DNA of 14,013 nucleotides from a virus. The position numbers were made by a program. Where the stretch lies: UHGV virus genome UHGV-1734115. One strand, written 5' to 3'. Shown piece after piece: positions 6,001-12,000 of the stretch; the stretch's first letter is position 1, and each line of letters opens with the position of its first letter.

Positions 6001-9000
6001 GTGAATTTAGTCTGGATAGCCATAAGTGTTTTATCCATTTTTGGGAACTCCTGGCTGATTAAGTATGTCGATAAGGCGTTTCCATCCATCACGTAATTTA
6101 CGTGTGATTCGTTCAAGTAAAGATTCGGAAGGGCAGCCAGCAACAGGCCACCCTGCAATGGCATATTGCATGGTGTGCTCCTTATTTATACATAACGAAA
6201 ACGCCTCGAATGAAGCGTTATTGGTATGCATATAAAAAAGCCCTCACATTGGAGGGCAAAGAAGATTTCCAATAATCAGAACAAGTCGGCTCCTGTTTAG
6301 TTACGAGCGACATTGCTCCGTGTATTCACTCGTTGGAATGAATACACAGTGCAGTGTTTATTCTGTTGTTTATGCCAAAAATAAAGGCCACCATTAGGCA
6401 GCCTTGTTGTTCTGTTTACCAAGTTCTCTGGCAATCATTGCCGTCGTTCGTATTGCCCATTTATCGACATATTTCCCATCTTCCATTACAGGAAACATTT
6501 CTTCAGGCTTAACCATGCATTCCGATTGCAGCTTGCATCCATTGCATCGCTTGAATTGTCCACACCATTGATTTTTATCAATAGTCGTAGTCATACGGAT
6601 AGTCCTGGTATTGTTCCATCACATCCTGAGGATGCTCTTCGAACTCTTCAAATTCTTCTTCCATATATCACCTTAAATAGTGGATTGCGGTAGTAAAGAT
6701 TGTGCCTGTCTTTTAACCACATCAGGCTCGGTGGTTCTCGTGTACCCCTACAGCGAGAAATCGGATAAACTCTATTCACCCCTACAGAGAGCAAAAGAGA
6801 AACGCCGATGAACAACTCATGGTGGCAGGAACTAATGCATTTTTTCCTGCAAGGAATGACACTTAAACAGTTGATTCATATGCTAATCATCCTGATCATA
6901 TTGATTATTGTTATGCCGGTAAGCGTAAAAGAATGGATAAACCTGCATAATCCAGAAATCCTTCCTTATTATTGGATGTATTACATCCTGTTGTTCTGCG
7001 TTAGCTATGTGCTTAACGGTGTTGTTAATTCCGCTTATCACGCTGTGACTGAAAGAATTGAGGTATCCGCTGCTCAGAAGCGCAAATCTAAAGAAGAAAA
7101 ATATGTGCAAGATTTGTTTGATTCGTTAACTCTTGGAGAAAGAGCGTATTTGGCATTCGCTGTAGCCGCGAATAACCAGCTAAAGACAGAAAAGGGAAGC
7201 CCTGAAGCAATCTCATTGCTCGAAAAAGGGCTTCTTATTCGGATACCTTCTGCTACTGGATATCCTGAAATCGACCGTTTTGTTATCCCGGAACGCTATA
7301 GAAATGAGTGCTACATTCGGTTTGCCGGGAAGGCAGACAGCCTTATGGATGAACTTATCGCTCAGGATAAGCATGGCAAAAACAAGTAATTAGCAAATGA
7401 ATTTATCATCTCGCCGTCAGTTGTTTTGATTTCCGGTAGCCTGCCGCGTAAAGAGCTACGTTCGGAAGACAAGTTGAACCTTCATATTTTCTGGTCAACG
7501 TTGTCAGAGTTATCACTTCTGCTCTCATTGCTGGTTTGCGCTTGCATTGCAAGACCACTCGTGAAGGGGTTGGCCTGTGTAGCTTGTCGGAGCTGATCGC
7601 CTCCTGACTTTGCAGATTTGCGCGACGCTCTCTACGGCGAGAAGCTGCGGTTCCTTTAAATTCTGTTTTTCTGGACATGGATTCCTCCCGAATAAACTCT
7701 GGCGATGCAATCCCGAAGCTACTCCTGAGAGAGTTGCTTCGGCATTGCATCCCACAGCTTATGTGGTTGGGTGATCTGGCTTTTCAGCCACGTAGTCGAG
7801 TGTTCGACGTTGTTTAAAGAGCCTGCCAGTCTGTTCCGTTTGGCTTACAGCGTCCTGCTGATGAGTTAACTTTATCGAAATGATAAATTAATGGCAATAG
7901 CAAAATGATAAATTGTTTTAGTTTTCAAATATCCTGTTGATTATTATGGTTTTTTATTTGATTGCAGGAATTTATCAGAAGGAATAAAGAGACTTGAGGG
8001 GGATCAGAATTGCGCGTTTTAGTGAGTTGTATCTGTTTATTTTTCAACAAATACAATTGGTTATGGTGTTATTAGGTGTGGGGATCGTGAGGCAAAGAAA
8101 ACCCGGCACTGAGGCCGGGTGTGTATTAGGGGGTTGAGACTCCAGAGAGCAATCCGTAGATTTTATATACAGTAAATGCTAATGCTGGCAAGCCAAGGGC
8201 CCATTTGATTATATCAAGCTTAACATCACTAAGCTTACCTTCTAACTTTGCCTCTTGAACAGAAAGAGCTGCATCGATCTTTTTTGATTGGGAGTCAAGG
8301 GCACTCTCAATTCTACTCGATTGTATGTCCAGACGACTGTTGATTTGTTCGTGCTGAGTAACAACTAAATGCTTCATCTCCTTTATATCTGAAGCCATTA
8401 GTTCACGCCATTTGGCCATATCAGCCTGCATTTTTGAGGCCACTGCATCCACTTCAGCTTTATTTGCCTTCAGAAGTGCCTGTATTTCGTTTCTGCTCAA
8501 ATCGGACATTGCGGTTCCCTGTATAGGAGTTTCCTCGTACGGTGGGATAACATTAGATTGTCCTTTACAATCGGCAACCCCTCCTTTATCTACGATTGTA
8601 GCAGTTAGCTGGGAATTGGTCGCATCATCCACCATGTTTTTTGGTGAATAAGAGGAAATAGGCGTAGAAAACAGATTACCTTTTGCTGTTTCCATGAACA
8701 TCATGAAATCGCGAGTATTAACGTTATTCAGGGAAACTTGCAGTGGTTTAACAATACTTGATGTTTTGTAAGTAATAGTTAAATCACCTACTTCTTCCGG
8801 TTGTTGCATTACGACTTCGCTCCATTAGAGTTTTGTGCCTCTAATTGTTCGAAAAGAAGAACTATATTCTCTTGAAGAGCCTTTAGTTGTGCCATTGGCA
8901 TTATCACAGTGCATTGCTGATTGAGTTCATTTACAGAGCCTATCTGCATATTCGCTCTACCTGGTTGATCTGGTATATCATTTTGGGATAGTACCGCAGG

Positions 9001-12000
9001 TATTGACTTGTTTGCGATAAAATGTATACAAATGAGATTTTTTTCCGCTCCCGGTAGTGGAGCAAAACTAGCGAAGTCCGCATAGGTTTCAATATAATCC
9101 ACAGATGGTTTAATTTTGACCGGTTCCATAACGCCTCTCATCAAATATTGTAGGTTTTTTAATTCAATGTGTTAAATGTTGGTGGTGTGTTATTTAAAGT
9201 TATTTTGACATCCTCCACGCCCTGAAGGACGGGGCTTGTCGCGTACTTGAAGTCACAAACTTTTCAGCCACTCCCTTGCCTCGATGTCATCCAGATGACG
9301 AGATTGCTTCAGAATACCAGCCACATACTCCACCTTTGCTACTTGATGATAAGGTAACGTTATTGGCCTGTGGTCCTGGTTGATGCTTGTAAATTGGTAT
9401 TCTCCATCTCTGTCATAGCCAAGAATCTTGATCATGTTGTGTCCTTCAACGGTTCTGACAAACACCTCATCCCCCGGGAATACTTTGGTGTTAGGCTCAA
9501 TGAGTACATATTCTCCTGATTTTATTCTAGGCCACATGCTGTCTCCTTTCACACGAAGACCAAAGGCATCTGGATCATCGCTATAAATCTTGAGCCACCC
9601 ATCGCGCTCTTCGGTCATCTCGATGGCACCATCAACACCAAGAATTGCCTCACCAACCACGCGCACTAACCCTTTTCTTACCTGACCGACAAAAGTTAAA
9701 GAATCTGAGCATGATGCAATTGGTGTTACATCATGTACCAAATCAAGCCACCCATTAGGTAACCCAAGTGCGGCTTCGAATTTTCTTGCTAGTTTATCCC
9801 CTATGTTTCGAGTGCTTTTTTCACCGGAGACTTGCGTGAGTTGAGAAGGGCTAACTCCAAGCTTATCGGCAAAGCTTGCATTAGTGTTACCCGCGATTTT
9901 TTTATGCTCATCTAGCAAAAACGCCAGATTCGATTTGCGAATATCTTTGTTTTCCATCCCACGATTCTCCCTCTATTTAGCAAATGGATAAATACGCATT
10001 TTGATAAATCTCCATTGCAGTTTATTTATCAAAATGGTAAAGTTGCTCTGTGTGATAAACGGAGGCACTAATGAGTAATGAACTACTACGCTGGCGAAAA
10101 GAGGCTTCTAGTGAGGAATGGAAGCGACTCGCCGCATTAGCGAATACTTCAGTTGGCTATCTTGATCAGATTGCATATGGGTTTCGAAGAGCTTCCCCAG
10201 ATAAAGCGAATGCAATCGAAGAAGCCACTCGTAATTTCACGGGTTATAAACCTGTGAAAAAGGAAAATCTGGTGTTCGTATCGCGTAGAGCATCAGCAGC
10301 ATAAGTAACCCCGCTCTTTGTAACAACGGACATTCGTCCTACGTCGCTGAAAAGCGAATCCCAGAATATCTGACCAACCAAGGCCATATGCGTTTCCACG
10401 CATACCTTTCAACTAGCTATTCACTATTGGAAATCATAAGAAATGGAACAAACAAGTTACAGCAAACTATCCCAGCGTGACGTTGATCGCGCAGAAACAG
10501 ATTTACTCATCAACCTGTCAACGCTTACCCAGCGCGGTCTGGCAAAGATGATTGGCTGTCATGAATCGAAGATAAGCAGAACGGACTGGAGATTTATTGC
10601 TTCAGTCTTGTGTGCTTTCGGAATGGCATCAGACATCAGTCCGATTAGTAGGGCTTTTAAGTATGCGCTTGATGGAATCACAAAGAAAAAATCCCCGGTG
10701 GCCGCCGGGGACTCTAAGCAAATTGATATGCAATTCTGAGGGAATTACTGGATCAATCCACAGGAGTAATTATGACAAAACGTCGTAAGAAATACCAGGA
10801 AAAAGAAGAGATTCGACACCCTGATTCACCTGAGGGATTAGTGGTAGCCGCAGCAAATAACAGGGCGTTCGCAGAGCGCCTTGTTGGTGTTTACAGACTA
10901 GCCAAAGCAGGAGTGAAGCATGGGCGTCGTTAAGTTAGCTGATTACAGGCATAACCCTGTACAACATCAGGAGGCATCCAGTATGGGGTATGTCTCTATA
11001 CACCGCCAGTTTATGGACAGCAGGCTCTATAAGGACTCTCAGGCAGTACATCTTTGGCTTCACTTAATCCTCAAGGCTAATCACGAATCTACTGTCGTCA
11101 ATACGGATATCGGGCCGATAACTGTTGATCGCGGTCAGATGATAACTGGACGCCCGTCGCTGGTCAGAGAAACATTCATCCCCGACAACAAAGTTCGGAG
11201 CTTATTACGGACTTTTGAGTCGAAAGGGATGCTTAATATTTGCTCGATGGGGAAGAAATTTAGCCTGTTTACAATCGTTAAATATGACGATTTTCAGGCA
11301 AAAAATTGTCCAACGGTTGTCCAACGGTTGTCCAACGCAAACACCAGTAATGGCGCGGCTCTCAGCGGAGATTGTCCAACGGTTGTCCAACGGTTGTCCA
11401 TAAACAATAATATAAATAATATCTCTAATACTGACGTATTAGAGAGTGCCACAGCAGACAAAAAGTCTGACAAGAAAAAACCTTCCGTCAGCTGTCAGGA
11501 TGTTGTCGATGCTTACCACGAAATCCTTCCTGAAGCGCCAAGAATCCGCGCACTGAATGACAAGCGTAAAAACCAGATCCGAACGTTCTGGCGCAAAGCC
11601 GGAGTAATAACACGCCAACTTGACGGGCATGGGTTCACGATGCAGGACTGGAGAAATTATTTGAGCTACGTTGGCGAAAATTGCCGATGGATGTTCGAAG
11701 AGCGCCCAAACCATCAACGCGGAACCGTCTGGCACAAAAAGGGATTTGATTTCCTGCTTAACGATAATACCTACCTGAAAGTTCGTGAGGGTGAACACGA
11801 TGACCGATAATTTTTATGCGCCGCCCCATAGCATCGAGGCAGAGCAGGCGGTGATTGGTGGATTGCTTCTGGATGATGACAGCAGTGAGCGCGTCCAGAA
11901 AGTTCTGGCGATGCTGAAGCCTGATTCATTTTACAGCCGACCACACAAAATCCTTTTCGAAGAAATAACCAGAATGCACCGGGAGCAAAAGCCAGTAGAT

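What the first reader, a model, noticed from the sequence alone, without database searches (positions are those of the whole stretch)
8098..9252. Uncharacterised two-gene cassette in the rexAB slot directly downstream of the cI repressor
Seen in sequence: two minus-strand ORFs (about 106 aa and 227 aa) lie immediately 3' of cI, overlap by one base (TAATG, implying translational coupling) and end at a clean intrinsic terminator (8102..8119 hairpin plus T-run). The block is visibly more AT-rich than the flanking cI and N genes. The 227-aa product has a coiled-coil-like central region and a single C-terminal transmembrane helix; the small product looks soluble. Established knowledge: in lambda this position holds rexA/rexB, co-transcribed with cI in lysogens, and the equivalent slot in lambdoid prophages is a known hotspot for exclusion and abortive-infection cargo. 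Inference: this is a lysogen-expressed sensor plus membrane effector pair, a candidate novel defense or exclusion system. I recognise neither protein.
Basis: partly seen in the sequence, partly recalled or inferred. Interest (0 to 1): 0.85.

Follow-up and report, generated by a model that had tools for sequence, protein, structure and literature searches.

The report
Uncharacterised gene pair replacing rexAB
In the place where phage lambda keeps its rexA/rexB exclusion genes, this E. coli prophage carries a conserved, never-studied pair (a small acidic soluble protein and a membrane-anchored coiled-coil protein) that is probably a new phage-exclusion device, although that role rests on position and architecture alone.

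Summary
Two translationally coupled minus-strand genes lie between the cI stop and an intrinsic terminator: A (8809-9129, 106 aa) and B (8126-8809, 227 aa). That terminator is 87% identical to the lambda terminator just after rexB, so this is the true rexAB slot. The terminator belongs to the phage backbone. The cargo is 8122-9247 (GC 40.5%, against cI 44.5% and N 49.9%).

B is a sub-threshold relative of CCDC90-like/DUF1640 and belongs to phrog_14825 (function unknown). It has a small beta-beta-alpha head, a disordered linker, a highly conserved core, an 11-residue-repeat helical stalk and a conserved, only marginally hydrophobic C-terminal anchor. A is a rare acidic beta-sheet-plus-helix protein with no family.

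The pair is a module. In about 110 fetched loci, almost every B relative has a small gene directly upstream, usually just after a prophage repressor and followed by a terminator. Partners fall into eight clusters that co-vary with B's N-terminus. None carries an enzymatic domain.

In complete E. coli genomes, the window type (48) plus the HK542 type (51) equal rexAB (99).

There is no homology to RexA/B or to PADLOC models, and I found no literature. An exclusion function is plausible (about 0.5) but untested.

The parts
9253..9957 (-). cI repressor (LexA/S24 type, H-19B/BP-4795 immunity). This is the upstream gene of the presumed immunity transcript and is backbone, not cargo.
   Evidence: It matches Peptidase_S24 (E 4e-16) and phrog_4. 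It is 96-97% identical to the BP-4795 cI region.
8122..9247 (-). The cargo block. This is the stretch with no counterpart in phages that carry the same cI and the same terminator.
   Evidence: Homology to BP-4795 runs over 10100..9248 and 8121..7850 only. GC is 40.5%.
9130..9252 (-). 123-nt spacer between cI and gene A. It has no terminator and contains a promoter-like site (TTAACA-17-TACAAT) at 9175..9147.
   Evidence: The promoter scan gives 10 of 12 matches, but the number of such sites in the region is not above the shuffle expectation. The RNA fold is no more stable than shuffles (z 0.25). Only 5 of 17 related loci have a promoter-like site at this place.
8809..9129 (-). Gene A: a 106-aa acidic soluble protein predicted as a beta-sheet (strands 19-24, 32-51, 59-78) plus a C-terminal helix (79-104).
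8126..8809 (-). Gene B: a 227-aa head-linker-core-stalk-anchor protein. Its ATG shares one base with the stop codon of A.
   Evidence: It matches phrog_14825 at E 4e-128. It scores 27.5 bits against PF07798 CCDC90-like, below the 33.5-bit cut-off, and 25 of 26 relatives also match that model.
8672..8791 (-). B head (residues ~7-46): a beta-hairpin plus a helix. This part co-varies with the type of upstream partner.
   Evidence: AF2 pLDDT is 81-86 here. Mean pairwise identity in the family is 35%. B relatives with other partner types have different N-termini.
8513..8671 (-). B linker (residues 47-99): disordered and hypervariable.
   Evidence: AF2 pLDDT is below 50. Mean pairwise identity is 13%.
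8399..8512 (-). B conserved core (residues 100-137): MSDLSRNEIQALLKANKAEVDAVASKMQADMAKWRE. It contains an ANKAE motif resembling the DUF1640 beta-layer motif.
   Evidence: Mean pairwise identity is 78%. Residues here are invariant or nearly invariant across all subtypes. The beta-layer consensus [aliphatic]-A-T-K-[polar]-[DE] for DUF1640 comes from PMC4786415.
8216..8398 (-). B stalk (residues 138-198): a helix built from 11-residue repeats. Some relatives lack exactly one repeat.
   Evidence: Hydrophobic periodicity peaks at 3.65-3.7 and 2.75, which correspond to 11/3 and 11/4. The 11-residue deletion is seen. AF2 pLDDT is 88-96.
8129..8215 (-). B C-terminal anchor (residues 199-227): DIIKWALGLPALAFTVYKIYGLLSGVSTP. 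It is a probable tail anchor and the most conserved part of the protein.
   Evidence: Mean pairwise identity is 85%. The Kyte-Doolittle 19-residue maximum is 1.36 and the summed Hessa-scale free energy is about +5 kcal/mol, which is marginal. It aligns with clear TM helices in HK542_B2, L016_B and L017_B.
8091..8120 (-). Intrinsic terminator, homologous to the lambda terminator just after rexB (tImm). It is backbone, not cargo.
   Evidence: The terminator is found. The stretch 8002-8120 is 87% identical over 119 nt to lambda 35712-35825. It is also shared with BP-4795 and HK542.
7406..7750 (-). N antiterminator, the downstream boundary gene of the slot.
   Evidence: It matches PF25694 N_peptide at E 1e-32.

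Best explanation
**Proposed mechanism**
The cassette is a prophage cargo module that takes the place of rexA-rexB in the cI immunity operon. It is transcribed with cI in the lysogen and ends at the tImm-like terminator. A and B are made in coupled amounts.

B is a tail-anchored protein on the cytoplasmic face of the inner membrane, probably a trimer. Its parts, from the membrane outwards, are a conserved C-terminal anchor, an 11-residue-repeat coiled-coil stalk, a conserved DUF1640-like core, a roughly 50-residue flexible tether and a small head. The acidic protein A docks on that head.

A plus the head form the exchangeable specificity part, which recognises a cue from an infecting phage. The conserved core-stalk-anchor is the common output. 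On triggering, it perturbs the inner membrane and aborts the infection, as Rex does, although the proteins are unrelated to Rex.

**What is shown**
- The position of the cassette.
- The translational coupling of A and B.
- The architecture of both proteins.
- The modular exchange of partners together with B's N-terminus.

**What is inferred**
- Co-transcription with cI.
- Trimer formation by B.
- Binding of A to the head.
- Any anti-phage function.
- A membrane-perturbing output.

My probability that the pair has some anti-phage exclusion role is about 0.5. For this specific Rex-like abortive mechanism it is about 0.3.
For: **Position and transcription signals**
- The slot identity is proven by its flanks: the cI stop on one side and the lambda tImm homologue on the other.
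- There is no terminator between cI and A.
- The layout matches lambda. The cI-to-first-gene spacer is 123 nt against 112 nt in lambda, the soluble gene comes first and the membrane gene second.
- The slot holds alternative cargo with the same immunity: HigB in BP-4795, and A2-B2 in HK542, which has lambda immunity.

**The pair is a conserved unit**
- The pair is conserved and tightly coupled in every distinct version with readable context. The genes either overlap or lie at most 12 nt apart.
- 66 of 68 viral loci have an upstream partner.
- All 16 loci tested have a terminator directly after B.
- A repressor lies directly upstream in most loci. In others the pair sits at classical moron or immI-like sites.

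**Modularity**
- Eight partner clusters co-vary with B's N-terminus, while the core (78% identity) and the anchor (85%) stay conserved.

**Architecture and prevalence**
- The prevalence equals that of rexAB.
Against: - There is no similarity to RexA/RexB, to any PADLOC model, or to any protein of known function.
- None of the eight partner clusters carries an enzymatic or otherwise recognisable sensing domain.
- The functional claim rests on position, and the same slot also holds toxin-antitoxin-like cargo.
- The anchor is only marginally hydrophobic, so stable membrane insertion is not certain.
- There are no expression or phenotype data, and I found no literature.
Confidence: 0.3

Rival explanations
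1. The pair is a non-lethal superinfection-exclusion device that blocks DNA entry. B is anchored in the inner membrane and acts as a scaffold on a host inner-membrane component that phages use for genome entry, or it traps ejected phage proteins at the cytoplasmic face. A adapts the specificity. The cell survives.
For: - Eukaryotic members of the CCDC90/DUF1640 family act as membrane scaffolds for a channel (MCUR1; PMC7519068, abstract).
- The anchor is the most conserved part, at 85% identity, as expected for a specific contact with a conserved host membrane protein.
- Distant B relatives carry 30-50-residue Pro/Gln-rich tails beyond the TM helix, which would reach into the periplasm.
- In L017/L018 the pair sits next to an arc/ant immI-like region.
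- From my own knowledge, many prophage exclusion proteins are small membrane proteins encoded next to the repressor.
Against: - Known entry blockers are mostly single genes, often with the bulk of the protein outside the cytoplasm. Here nearly all of B is cytoplasmic, and the window's B has only about 5 residues beyond the anchor.
- There is no homology to SieA, SieB, Imm, Cor or similar proteins.
Confidence: 0.2
2. The pair is lysogenic-conversion or host-physiology cargo with no anti-phage role. The membrane-tethered A-B complex would modulate a host membrane process such as transport, envelope stress or protease activity, to the benefit of the lysogen.
For: - No defence-type domain is present in B or in any partner cluster.
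- The known functions of the CCDC90 family are scaffolding and regulation, not immunity.
- The A-B sequence in E. coli is nearly invariant, at 99% identity or more in 42 of 48 genomes.
Against: - The exchange of partner and N-terminus around a constant output, the strict residence in prophage immunity or moron sites, and the patchy 0.9% prevalence fit conflict systems better than housekeeping modulation.
- Where the slot's occupants have been studied, they are exclusion or toxin functions (rexAB; the HigB-like cargo).
Confidence: 0.2
3. The pair is a toxin-antitoxin-like addiction or stabilisation module. B would be a membrane-active toxin and A its coupled neutraliser, keeping the prophage in the population or stabilising the immunity region.
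For: - The small gene comes first, translational coupling is tight and the pair is strictly conserved.
- With the same cI, the slot in BP-4795 carries a HigB-type toxin module.
- The hydrophobic C-terminus is marginal and highly conserved, which would suit conditional membrane insertion.
Against: - A is not a recognisable antitoxin. It has no DNA-binding fold and scores only E 0.1 against Phd/YefM in one member.
- Membrane toxins of known TA systems are short peptides, not 227-aa coiled coils.
- TA and abortive infection are not exclusive, so this rival overlaps the best explanation.
Confidence: 0.1
4. The pair serves the phage's own life cycle, for example by modulating lysogeny maintenance, induction or lysis timing from the membrane.
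For: - It is co-located with cI in most loci and is presumably co-regulated with it.
- A family of comparable prevalence occupies the same operon position in many immunity types.
Against: - The pair is dispensable. Phages with the same cI lack it.
- It also occurs away from the repressor: next to tail-fibre genes in L007, and in a context in Providencia L041 that I could not recognise as prophage.
Confidence: 0.1

Closest known systems
Lambda RexA/RexB (abortive-infection pair in the cI operon)
   Same: - It occupies the identical genomic slot, between the cI stop and the homologous tImm terminator.
- It is on the same strand and has the same order, soluble protein gene first and membrane protein gene second.
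- The spacer after cI is similar (123 nt against 112 nt).
- It is found in a comparable number of complete E. coli genomes: 99 for rexAB against 48 + 51 for the two B-family cassettes.
   Different: - There is no sequence similarity (BLASTP E above 1).
- RexB is a 144-aa protein with four hydrophobic segments. B is a 227-aa coiled coil with one marginal C-terminal anchor.
- RexA has 279 aa. A has 106 aa and a different predicted fold.
- The window pair is translationally overlapped.
CCDC90-like / DUF1640 family (PF07798; MCUR1, CCDC90B and prokaryotic membrane proteins)
   Same: - The C-terminal half of B aligns with the model (positions 63-167 of 175), as do 25 of 26 relatives.
- A motif resembling the family's beta-layer ([aliphatic]-A-T-K-[polar]-[DE]) sits at the start of the stalk, here as K-A-N-K-A-E.
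- It shares the C-terminal membrane-anchor architecture.
   Different: - The score is below Pfam's gathering cut-off (27.5 against 33.5 bits).
- The head is separated from the stalk by a 50-residue disordered linker.
- It has an obligatory small partner gene.
- It is prophage cargo. The known members are mitochondrial scaffolds and have no link to phage biology.
HK542/HK244 immunity-region pair (phrog_5893 + phrog_5820), function unknown
   Same: - It occupies the same slot, after a lambda-type cI and before the same terminator.
- It has the same two-gene logic, with a 4-nt overlap.
- Its second protein shares B's core, stalk and TM organisation (E 4e-10 by BLASTP, 7.5e-16 by profile).
   Different: - The partner (144 aa) is unrelated to A.
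- B2 lacks the beta-beta-alpha head.
- B2 has a strongly hydrophobic TM helix (Kyte-Doolittle 2.7) followed by a 32-residue Pro/Gln-rich tail.
Two-gene prophage defences with a soluble plus a membrane protein next to the repressor (e.g. mycobacteriophage Sbash gp30/gp31, from my own knowledge)
   Same: - It shows the same general logic: lysogen-expressed, adjacent to the immunity repressor, with one cytoplasmic and one membrane protein.
   Different: - No homology was tested or is expected. Those membrane components are multi-pass, channel-like proteins.
- This comparison comes from memory, not from a tool result.

Membership tests
RexAB | Sequence homology to RexA and RexB | tested here: not met
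   BLASTP of A and B against lambda RexA and RexB gives no hit better than E 2.8. No Rex family appears in the Pfam or PHROG scans.
RexAB | Location between cI and tImm on the cI strand (cI-rexA-rexB operon position) | tested here: met
   The cargo is bounded by the cI stop and by a terminator 87% identical to the one just after lambda rexB. No terminator lies between cI and A.
RexAB | Multi-pass membrane component (RexB, four hydrophobic segments) | tested here: not met
   The Kyte-Doolittle scan finds about four hydrophobic stretches in RexB. B has no segment at 1.6 or above and one marginal C-terminal segment.
RexAB | Abortive exclusion of superinfecting phage (e.g. T4 rII) with loss of membrane potential | not testable with these tools
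   This needs plating and membrane-potential assays.
CCDC90-like / DUF1640 (PF07798) | Match to the Pfam model at or above the gathering score | tested here: not met
   B scores 27.5 bits against a cut-off of 33.5 (E 3e-6). 25 of 26 relatives match at E below 1e-3, with a best E of 7e-7. This is a consistent sub-threshold relative.
CCDC90-like / DUF1640 (PF07798) | Beta-layer motif [aliphatic]-A-T-K-[polar]-[DE] at the start of the C-terminal stalk | tested here: inconclusive
   The near-invariant K-A-N-K-A-E at residues 114-119 resembles the consensus but does not fit it exactly. The monomer AF2 model shows a continuous helix, so it cannot show a beta-layer.
CCDC90-like / DUF1640 (PF07798) | C-terminal transmembrane anchor | tested here: inconclusive
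   The segment is marginally hydrophobic in the window protein (Kyte-Doolittle 1.36) but aligns with clear TM helices in distant relatives (2.0-2.7). No dedicated TM predictor was available.
CCDC90-like / DUF1640 (PF07798) | Trimeric coiled-coil stalk | not testable with these tools
   Only monomer prediction was available. The 11-residue periodicity is compatible with a trimer but does not fix the oligomeric state.
phrog_14825 (phage protein family, function unknown) | Full-length match to the family profile | tested here: met
   E 3.6e-128, covering residues 1-227 on profile positions 1-204 of 204.
Known anti-phage defence systems (PADLOC-DB 2.0) | Significant match of either protein to a defence-system model | tested here: not met
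   A has no hit. B's only hit is HEC-07 at E 0.009 and 12.5 bits, over coiled coil.
Type II toxin-antitoxin modules | Recognisable toxin or antitoxin domain | tested here: not met
   No Pfam or NCBIfam toxin or antitoxin family matches A or B. One A relative gives Phd/YefM at E 0.1.
A-B pair family as defined here | A small gene immediately upstream of, and coupled to, a B-family gene | tested here: met
   The window overlap is 1 nt. All distinct versions with readable context have a partner that overlaps B or lies at most 12 nt away. 66 of 68 viral loci have a partner.

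The most novel reading that the evidence does not exclude
The B family would be a new class of prophage immune device and the first functional role for prokaryotic DUF1640/CCDC90-like proteins. In this reading it is a trimeric, membrane-tethered coiled-coil transducer. Its exchangeable small cytoplasmic receptors (A, A2 and the zinc-ribbon types) detect different phage cues. 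Its conserved, marginally hydrophobic C-terminus switches into a membrane-disrupting state, or gates a host channel. It would be as common in E. coli prophages as Rex.
Probability: 0.2. Interest if true: 0.8.

Novelty: new variant of a known kind. Interest (0 to 1): 0.6.

Why it matters
The gap between cI and N in lambdoid prophages is the classical home of Rex, the oldest known abortive-infection system. This work shows that an unrelated two-gene family fills the same operon position across many immunity types in Enterobacterales. The family is modular, with one conserved membrane-anchored coiled-coil protein and at least eight exchangeable partner types.

In complete E. coli genomes, its two commonest forms together are as frequent as rexAB. 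Yet no member has a known function, a defence-database entry or a paper.

If the pair is anti-phage, it would add a system with no enzymatic domain, whose output must lie in the membrane anchor or in a recruited host factor. It would also give prokaryotic relatives of the mitochondrial MCUR1/CCDC90 family their first role. The test is cheap: a 1.1-kb cassette, with natural variants that carry swapped partners to use as specificity controls.

Tried and rejected
**Searches that found no function**
- Profile searches of A and B against Pfam, PHROGs, PADLOC and NCBIfam gave no functional family. B gets only phrog_14825 (unknown function) and a sub-threshold CCDC90-like match.
- PDB sequence searches with family profiles gave nothing for B and only chance-level hits for A.
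- Foldseek of the B model against PDB gave nothing with E at or below 0.001; the long single helix carries little information.
- Foldseek of A against BFVD found only two uncharacterised viral proteins.
- The afdb50 library was not available.
- The PHROG and Pfam scans gave no informative match for representatives of four partner types. Clusters 4-7 were not scanned.

**Literature**
- Searches for DUF1640 or CCDC90 with phage or prophage, for rexAB-slot hotspots, for HK244/HK542, for the RefSeq accessions and for tail-anchored exclusion proteins found nothing on this pair.
- The DefensePredictor paper does not mention these domains.
- The Brenes and Laub prophage-defence paper is not held in the library.

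**Ideas considered and not supported**
- A separate promoter as a family feature: a promoter-like site is present in only 5 of 17 loci.
- A regulatory RNA structure in the cI-A spacer: the fold is no better than shuffles.

**Scans of limited yield**
- The genome-contig scan returned only 2 loci, in Providencia and Citrobacter. This is expected for strain-variable prophage cargo in a collection with one genome per species.

Full report
**1. What is in the sequence**

The window is the early region of a lambdoid E. coli prophage. It contains:
- antirepressor-like genes, and Ea22-like and DUF551 genes;
- a cIII thermoregulator element;
- a sieB-like gene on the plus strand and N on the minus strand;
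- cI (S24 type), cro, cII and a replication protein gene;
- a DnaB-type helicase and an HNH/AP2 endonuclease.

On the minus strand, directly after cI (9253-9957), lie two ORFs. Gene A is 8809-9129 (106 aa from the ATG). Gene B is 8126-8809 (227 aa). The TAA stop of A and the ATG of B share base 8809.

A GC-rich hairpin (8120..8101) followed by a T-run sits just after B. It is the only minus-strand terminator-like site between N and cro. The 123-nt cI-A spacer folds no better than shuffled sequence and has no T-run terminator.

GC is 40.5% for the cargo, against 44.5% for cI, 49.9% for N and 45.6% for the window. The AT-richness is modest.

**2. The slot is the rexAB slot by homology of its flanks**

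Phages with the same cI (H-19B, BP-4795 and many Stx phages; 95-97% identity) match the window on both sides, but not between 8122 and 9247.
- In BP-4795 that interval holds a HigB-type toxin gene, an HTH regulator and a hypothetical gene.
- The window stretch 8002-8120, which includes the terminator, is 87% identical over 119 nt to lambda 35712-35825. That is the sequence immediately after the rexB stop. It is also shared with HK542.

So the terminator is phage backbone, the tImm equivalent. The cargo is inserted exactly where lambda has rexA-rexB.

The layout also matches lambda. The spacer after cI is 123 nt against 112 nt, and the soluble protein gene comes first and the membrane protein gene second.

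In some E. coli prophages, homology to the window starts inside cI at 9706. The same cassette is therefore linked to a cI with a different N-terminal domain.

**3. The two proteins**

*Protein B*
- It matches phrog_14825 (unknown function) full length, at E 4e-128.
- It matches Pfam CCDC90-like/DUF1640 below the gathering score (27.5 against 33.5 bits) over residues 106-214. 25 of 26 relatives give the same sub-threshold match. Some RefSeq records call it 'CCDC90 family protein'.
- The AF2 model (26 sequences, mean pLDDT 74) has three parts: a beta-hairpin plus helix at about residues 7-45, a disordered stretch at 48-98, and one helix over about 103-222 with pLDDT above 90 for most of it.
- Hydrophobicity along the helix has periods of 3.65-3.7 and 2.75. 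These are 11/3 and 11/4, so the repeat is 11 residues. Some relatives lack exactly 11 residues.
- Conservation is very uneven: head 35%, linker 13%, core (100-137) 78%, stalk 58% and C-terminal segment (199-222) 85% mean pairwise identity.
- The core carries a near-invariant K-A-N-K-A-E. This resembles the beta-layer motif described for DUF1640 proteins at the start of their stalk (PMC4786415).
- The C-terminal segment is only marginally hydrophobic (Kyte-Doolittle 1.36; a rough Hessa-scale sum of about +5 kcal/mol). It contains conserved Lys, Pro, Gly and aromatic residues.
- That segment aligns with unambiguous TM helices in distant relatives (Kyte-Doolittle 2.0-2.7). Several of those relatives continue into 30-50-residue Pro/Gln-rich tails.
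- I therefore read B as a tail-anchored protein with its N-terminus in the cytoplasm. Its anchor is unusual and its membrane insertion needs testing.

*Protein A*
- It matches no Pfam, PHROG, PADLOC or NCBIfam model and has no significant PDB match.
- An exhaustive profile search of 1.84 billion cluster representatives found only 17 clusters, all proteins of 37-116 aa, most of them 85-116 aa.
- AF2 (13 sequences, pLDDT 83) gives a beta-sheet followed by a C-terminal helix.
- The family is uniformly acidic, with pI 4.7-5.8. This argues against nucleic-acid binding.

**4. The pair is a conserved, mobile and modular unit**

Every B relative whose context I could read has a small gene immediately upstream. 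The two genes overlap or lie at most 12 nt apart.
- Yersinia prophages: A is 51% and B 55% identical to the window proteins. The pair follows two different cI types there.
- Metagenomic and IMG/VR phages.
- Very distant A homologues: these are followed by B-like proteins of 257-313 aa.
- Citrobacter and Providencia genomes.
- A prophage inside an IncC plasmid.

A broader scan of viral contigs gave 68 loci, of which 66 have a partner. Of the two exceptions, one (L067) has the same repressor and B coordinates as neighbouring loci that do have a partner, so it may be a miss by my ORF heuristic. I did not check the other.

The partners fall into eight sequence clusters:

| Partner type | Length | Loci |
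|---|---|---|
| A type | 98-127 aa | 18 |
| A-like type (hhalign probability 44%, E 2e-4, colinear) | 96-100 aa | 6 |
| HK542-type A2 | 143-162 aa | 32 |
| Zinc-ribbon type 1 | 112-120 aa | 4 |
| Zinc-ribbon type 2 | 125-131 aa | 3 |
| Singletons (three clusters) | 93, 106 and 165 aa | 1 each |

Further points on these clusters:
- B's N-terminal region changes with the partner type, while the core, stalk and anchor stay recognisable.
- No informative Pfam or PHROG match was found for the partner types scanned, which were A, A2, the A-like type and zinc-ribbon type 1. Clusters 4-7 were not scanned.
- An S24-type repressor lies just upstream in 48 of the 68 loci. Others have a short CI-type HTH repressor.
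- In the exceptions, the pair sits beside tail-fibre genes (L007) or after an arc/ant region (L017/18). Both are also cargo sites.
- All 16 loci tested have a hairpin plus T-run right after B. Only 5 of 17 have a promoter-like site before the partner. Read-through from the repressor promoter is therefore the likely main source of expression. This is an inference from lambda, not something shown here.

All organisms named for these sequences are Enterobacterales: Escherichia, Klebsiella, Yersinia, Enterobacter, Serratia, Citrobacter and Providencia.

**5. How common it is**

Counts of near-identical DNA (megablast) among 5,426 complete E. coli genomes:

| Cassette | Genomes with a match |
|---|---|
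| Window type (A-B) | 48 |
| HK542 type (A2-B2) | 51 |
| Lambda rexAB | 99 (includes laboratory lambda lysogens) |

The two commonest forms of the B family are thus together as frequent as Rex in the same slot.

**6. What it most likely does**

Homology gives no function, so the reasoning has to rest on anatomy and context.

*What is shown*
- The operon position.
- The translational coupling.
- The head-linker-core-stalk-anchor build of B.
- The strict pairing of B with a small upstream gene.
- The exchange of partner plus N-terminus around a conserved C-terminal half.
- Residence in prophage cargo sites.
- Patchy distribution.

*What is inferred*
- Co-transcription with cI in lysogens.
- Trimer formation, by analogy with DUF1640 stalks.
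- Binding of A to the head, from the co-variation.
- An anti-phage role, from the slot and from the variable-receptor, constant-output pattern typical of conflict systems.

*The mechanism I commit to*

The pair works like Rex. A plus the head detect a phage cue at the cytoplasmic face of the inner membrane. The stalk couples this to the conserved, marginally hydrophobic C-terminus, which then perturbs the membrane and aborts the infection. I give this 0.3, and any anti-phage exclusion role about 0.5.

*Rivals*
- A non-lethal DNA-entry block acting through a host membrane protein (0.2). The very conserved anchor and the periplasmic Pro-rich tails of relatives favour this.
- A phage-independent modulation of host membrane physiology (0.2).
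- A toxin-antitoxin-like module (0.1).
- A role in the phage's own life cycle (0.1).

*Evidence against the defence reading*
- No PADLOC hit.
- No similarity to RexA/B.
- No enzymatic domain anywhere in the family.
- No literature.

**7. Comparison with known systems, and novelty**

The pair works like Rex in position and gene logic. It is not a Rex family member, because the homology and multi-pass membrane features were tested and not met.

B is a sub-threshold relative of CCDC90-like/DUF1640. It shares the stalk motif and the anchor architecture. It fails the Pfam cut-off and differs in having a tethered head and an obligatory partner.

The nearest relatives are the unstudied HK542/HK244 immunity-region pair (phrog_5893 and phrog_5820).

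I rate it a new variant of a known kind: lysogen-side cargo in the immunity operon, built from proteins unrelated to any characterised exclusion system.

Interest is 0.6. A specialist would not be surprised to find unknown cargo in this hotspot. The added findings are what make it a good experimental target: a widespread modular family with swappable partners, a prevalence equal to Rex, no enzymatic domain, and a link to the MCUR1/CCDC90 family.

Noticed in passing
window 6808-7389 (+): A sieB-like superinfection-exclusion gene (Pfam SieB E 7e-25; phrog_1301 E 1.5e-122) lies just beyond N. The prophage therefore carries a second candidate exclusion function about 700 bp from the cassette.
   Followed up: partly
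window 9147-9175 (-): A promoter-like site (TTAACA-17-TACAAT, 10 of 12) lies in the cI-A spacer, 18 nt upstream of the ATG of A. It might give the cassette cI-independent expression, as PLit does for rexB in lambda (from my own knowledge). Only 5 of 17 related loci have such a site.
   Followed up: partly
window 9706 (inside cI); loci L021-L024: In several E. coli viral contigs, homology to the window starts within cI, at the boundary between the N-terminal DNA-binding part and the S24 part. The cassette therefore travels with the cI C-terminal domain, joined to a different immunity specificity.
   Followed up: partly
L015 (BP-4795) 1729-3070: With the same cI and the same terminator, BP-4795 and H-19B-type Stx phages carry a HigB-type toxin gene (Pfam E 4.5e-30), a 218-aa HTH protein and a 134-aa unknown protein in this slot.
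   Followed up: partly
window 6126-6184 (-): A lambda cIII thermoregulator RNA element is present (Rfam RF01804, 88.5 bits).
   Followed up: no
window 779-868 (-): There is an Rfam match to sRNA-Xcc1 (RF02221, 62.9 bits against a gathering score of 53), between the AntA-like antirepressor gene and the next gene. It is unexpected in a coliphage early region and unexplained.
   Followed up: no
window 13318-13929 (+): A 203-aa ORF with HNH_3 (E 8e-16) and AP2 domains looks like a free-standing homing endonuclease. It sits directly after the DnaB-type helicase gene.
   Followed up: no
window ~11290-11400 (+), inside the replication protein gene 10920-11810: The product contains the repeated peptide CPTVVQRLS(N/I), and the DNA matches itself at a second place in the related HK542 gene. 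These are probably origin iterons inside the O-like gene.
   Followed up: no
L010 4294-4506; L013 2337-2495: Some relatives have an extra small ORF between the repressor and the partner. One is a 70-aa protein with a weak, sub-threshold zinc-finger match (DUF2116, E 4e-4). The other is a 52-aa hydrophobic peptide. These may be further components or independent cargo.
   Followed up: no
L041 3507-4378 (Providencia alcalifaciens chromosome): A distant A-B pair sits among small genes that I did not characterise, some with hydrophobic, signal-like N-termini. No repressor or other phage gene was evident in the ORF list of the part I read. The family may therefore not be strictly prophage-bound.
   Followed up: no
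B-family alignments (A1, A4), anchor columns: The C-terminal hydrophobic segment is the most conserved part of B (85% identity; invariant I, I, W, L, G, P, A, L, F, K, Y). It is also too polar for a standard TM helix. Simple membrane anchors normally evolve fast, so this segment probably has a specific function.
   Followed up: partly
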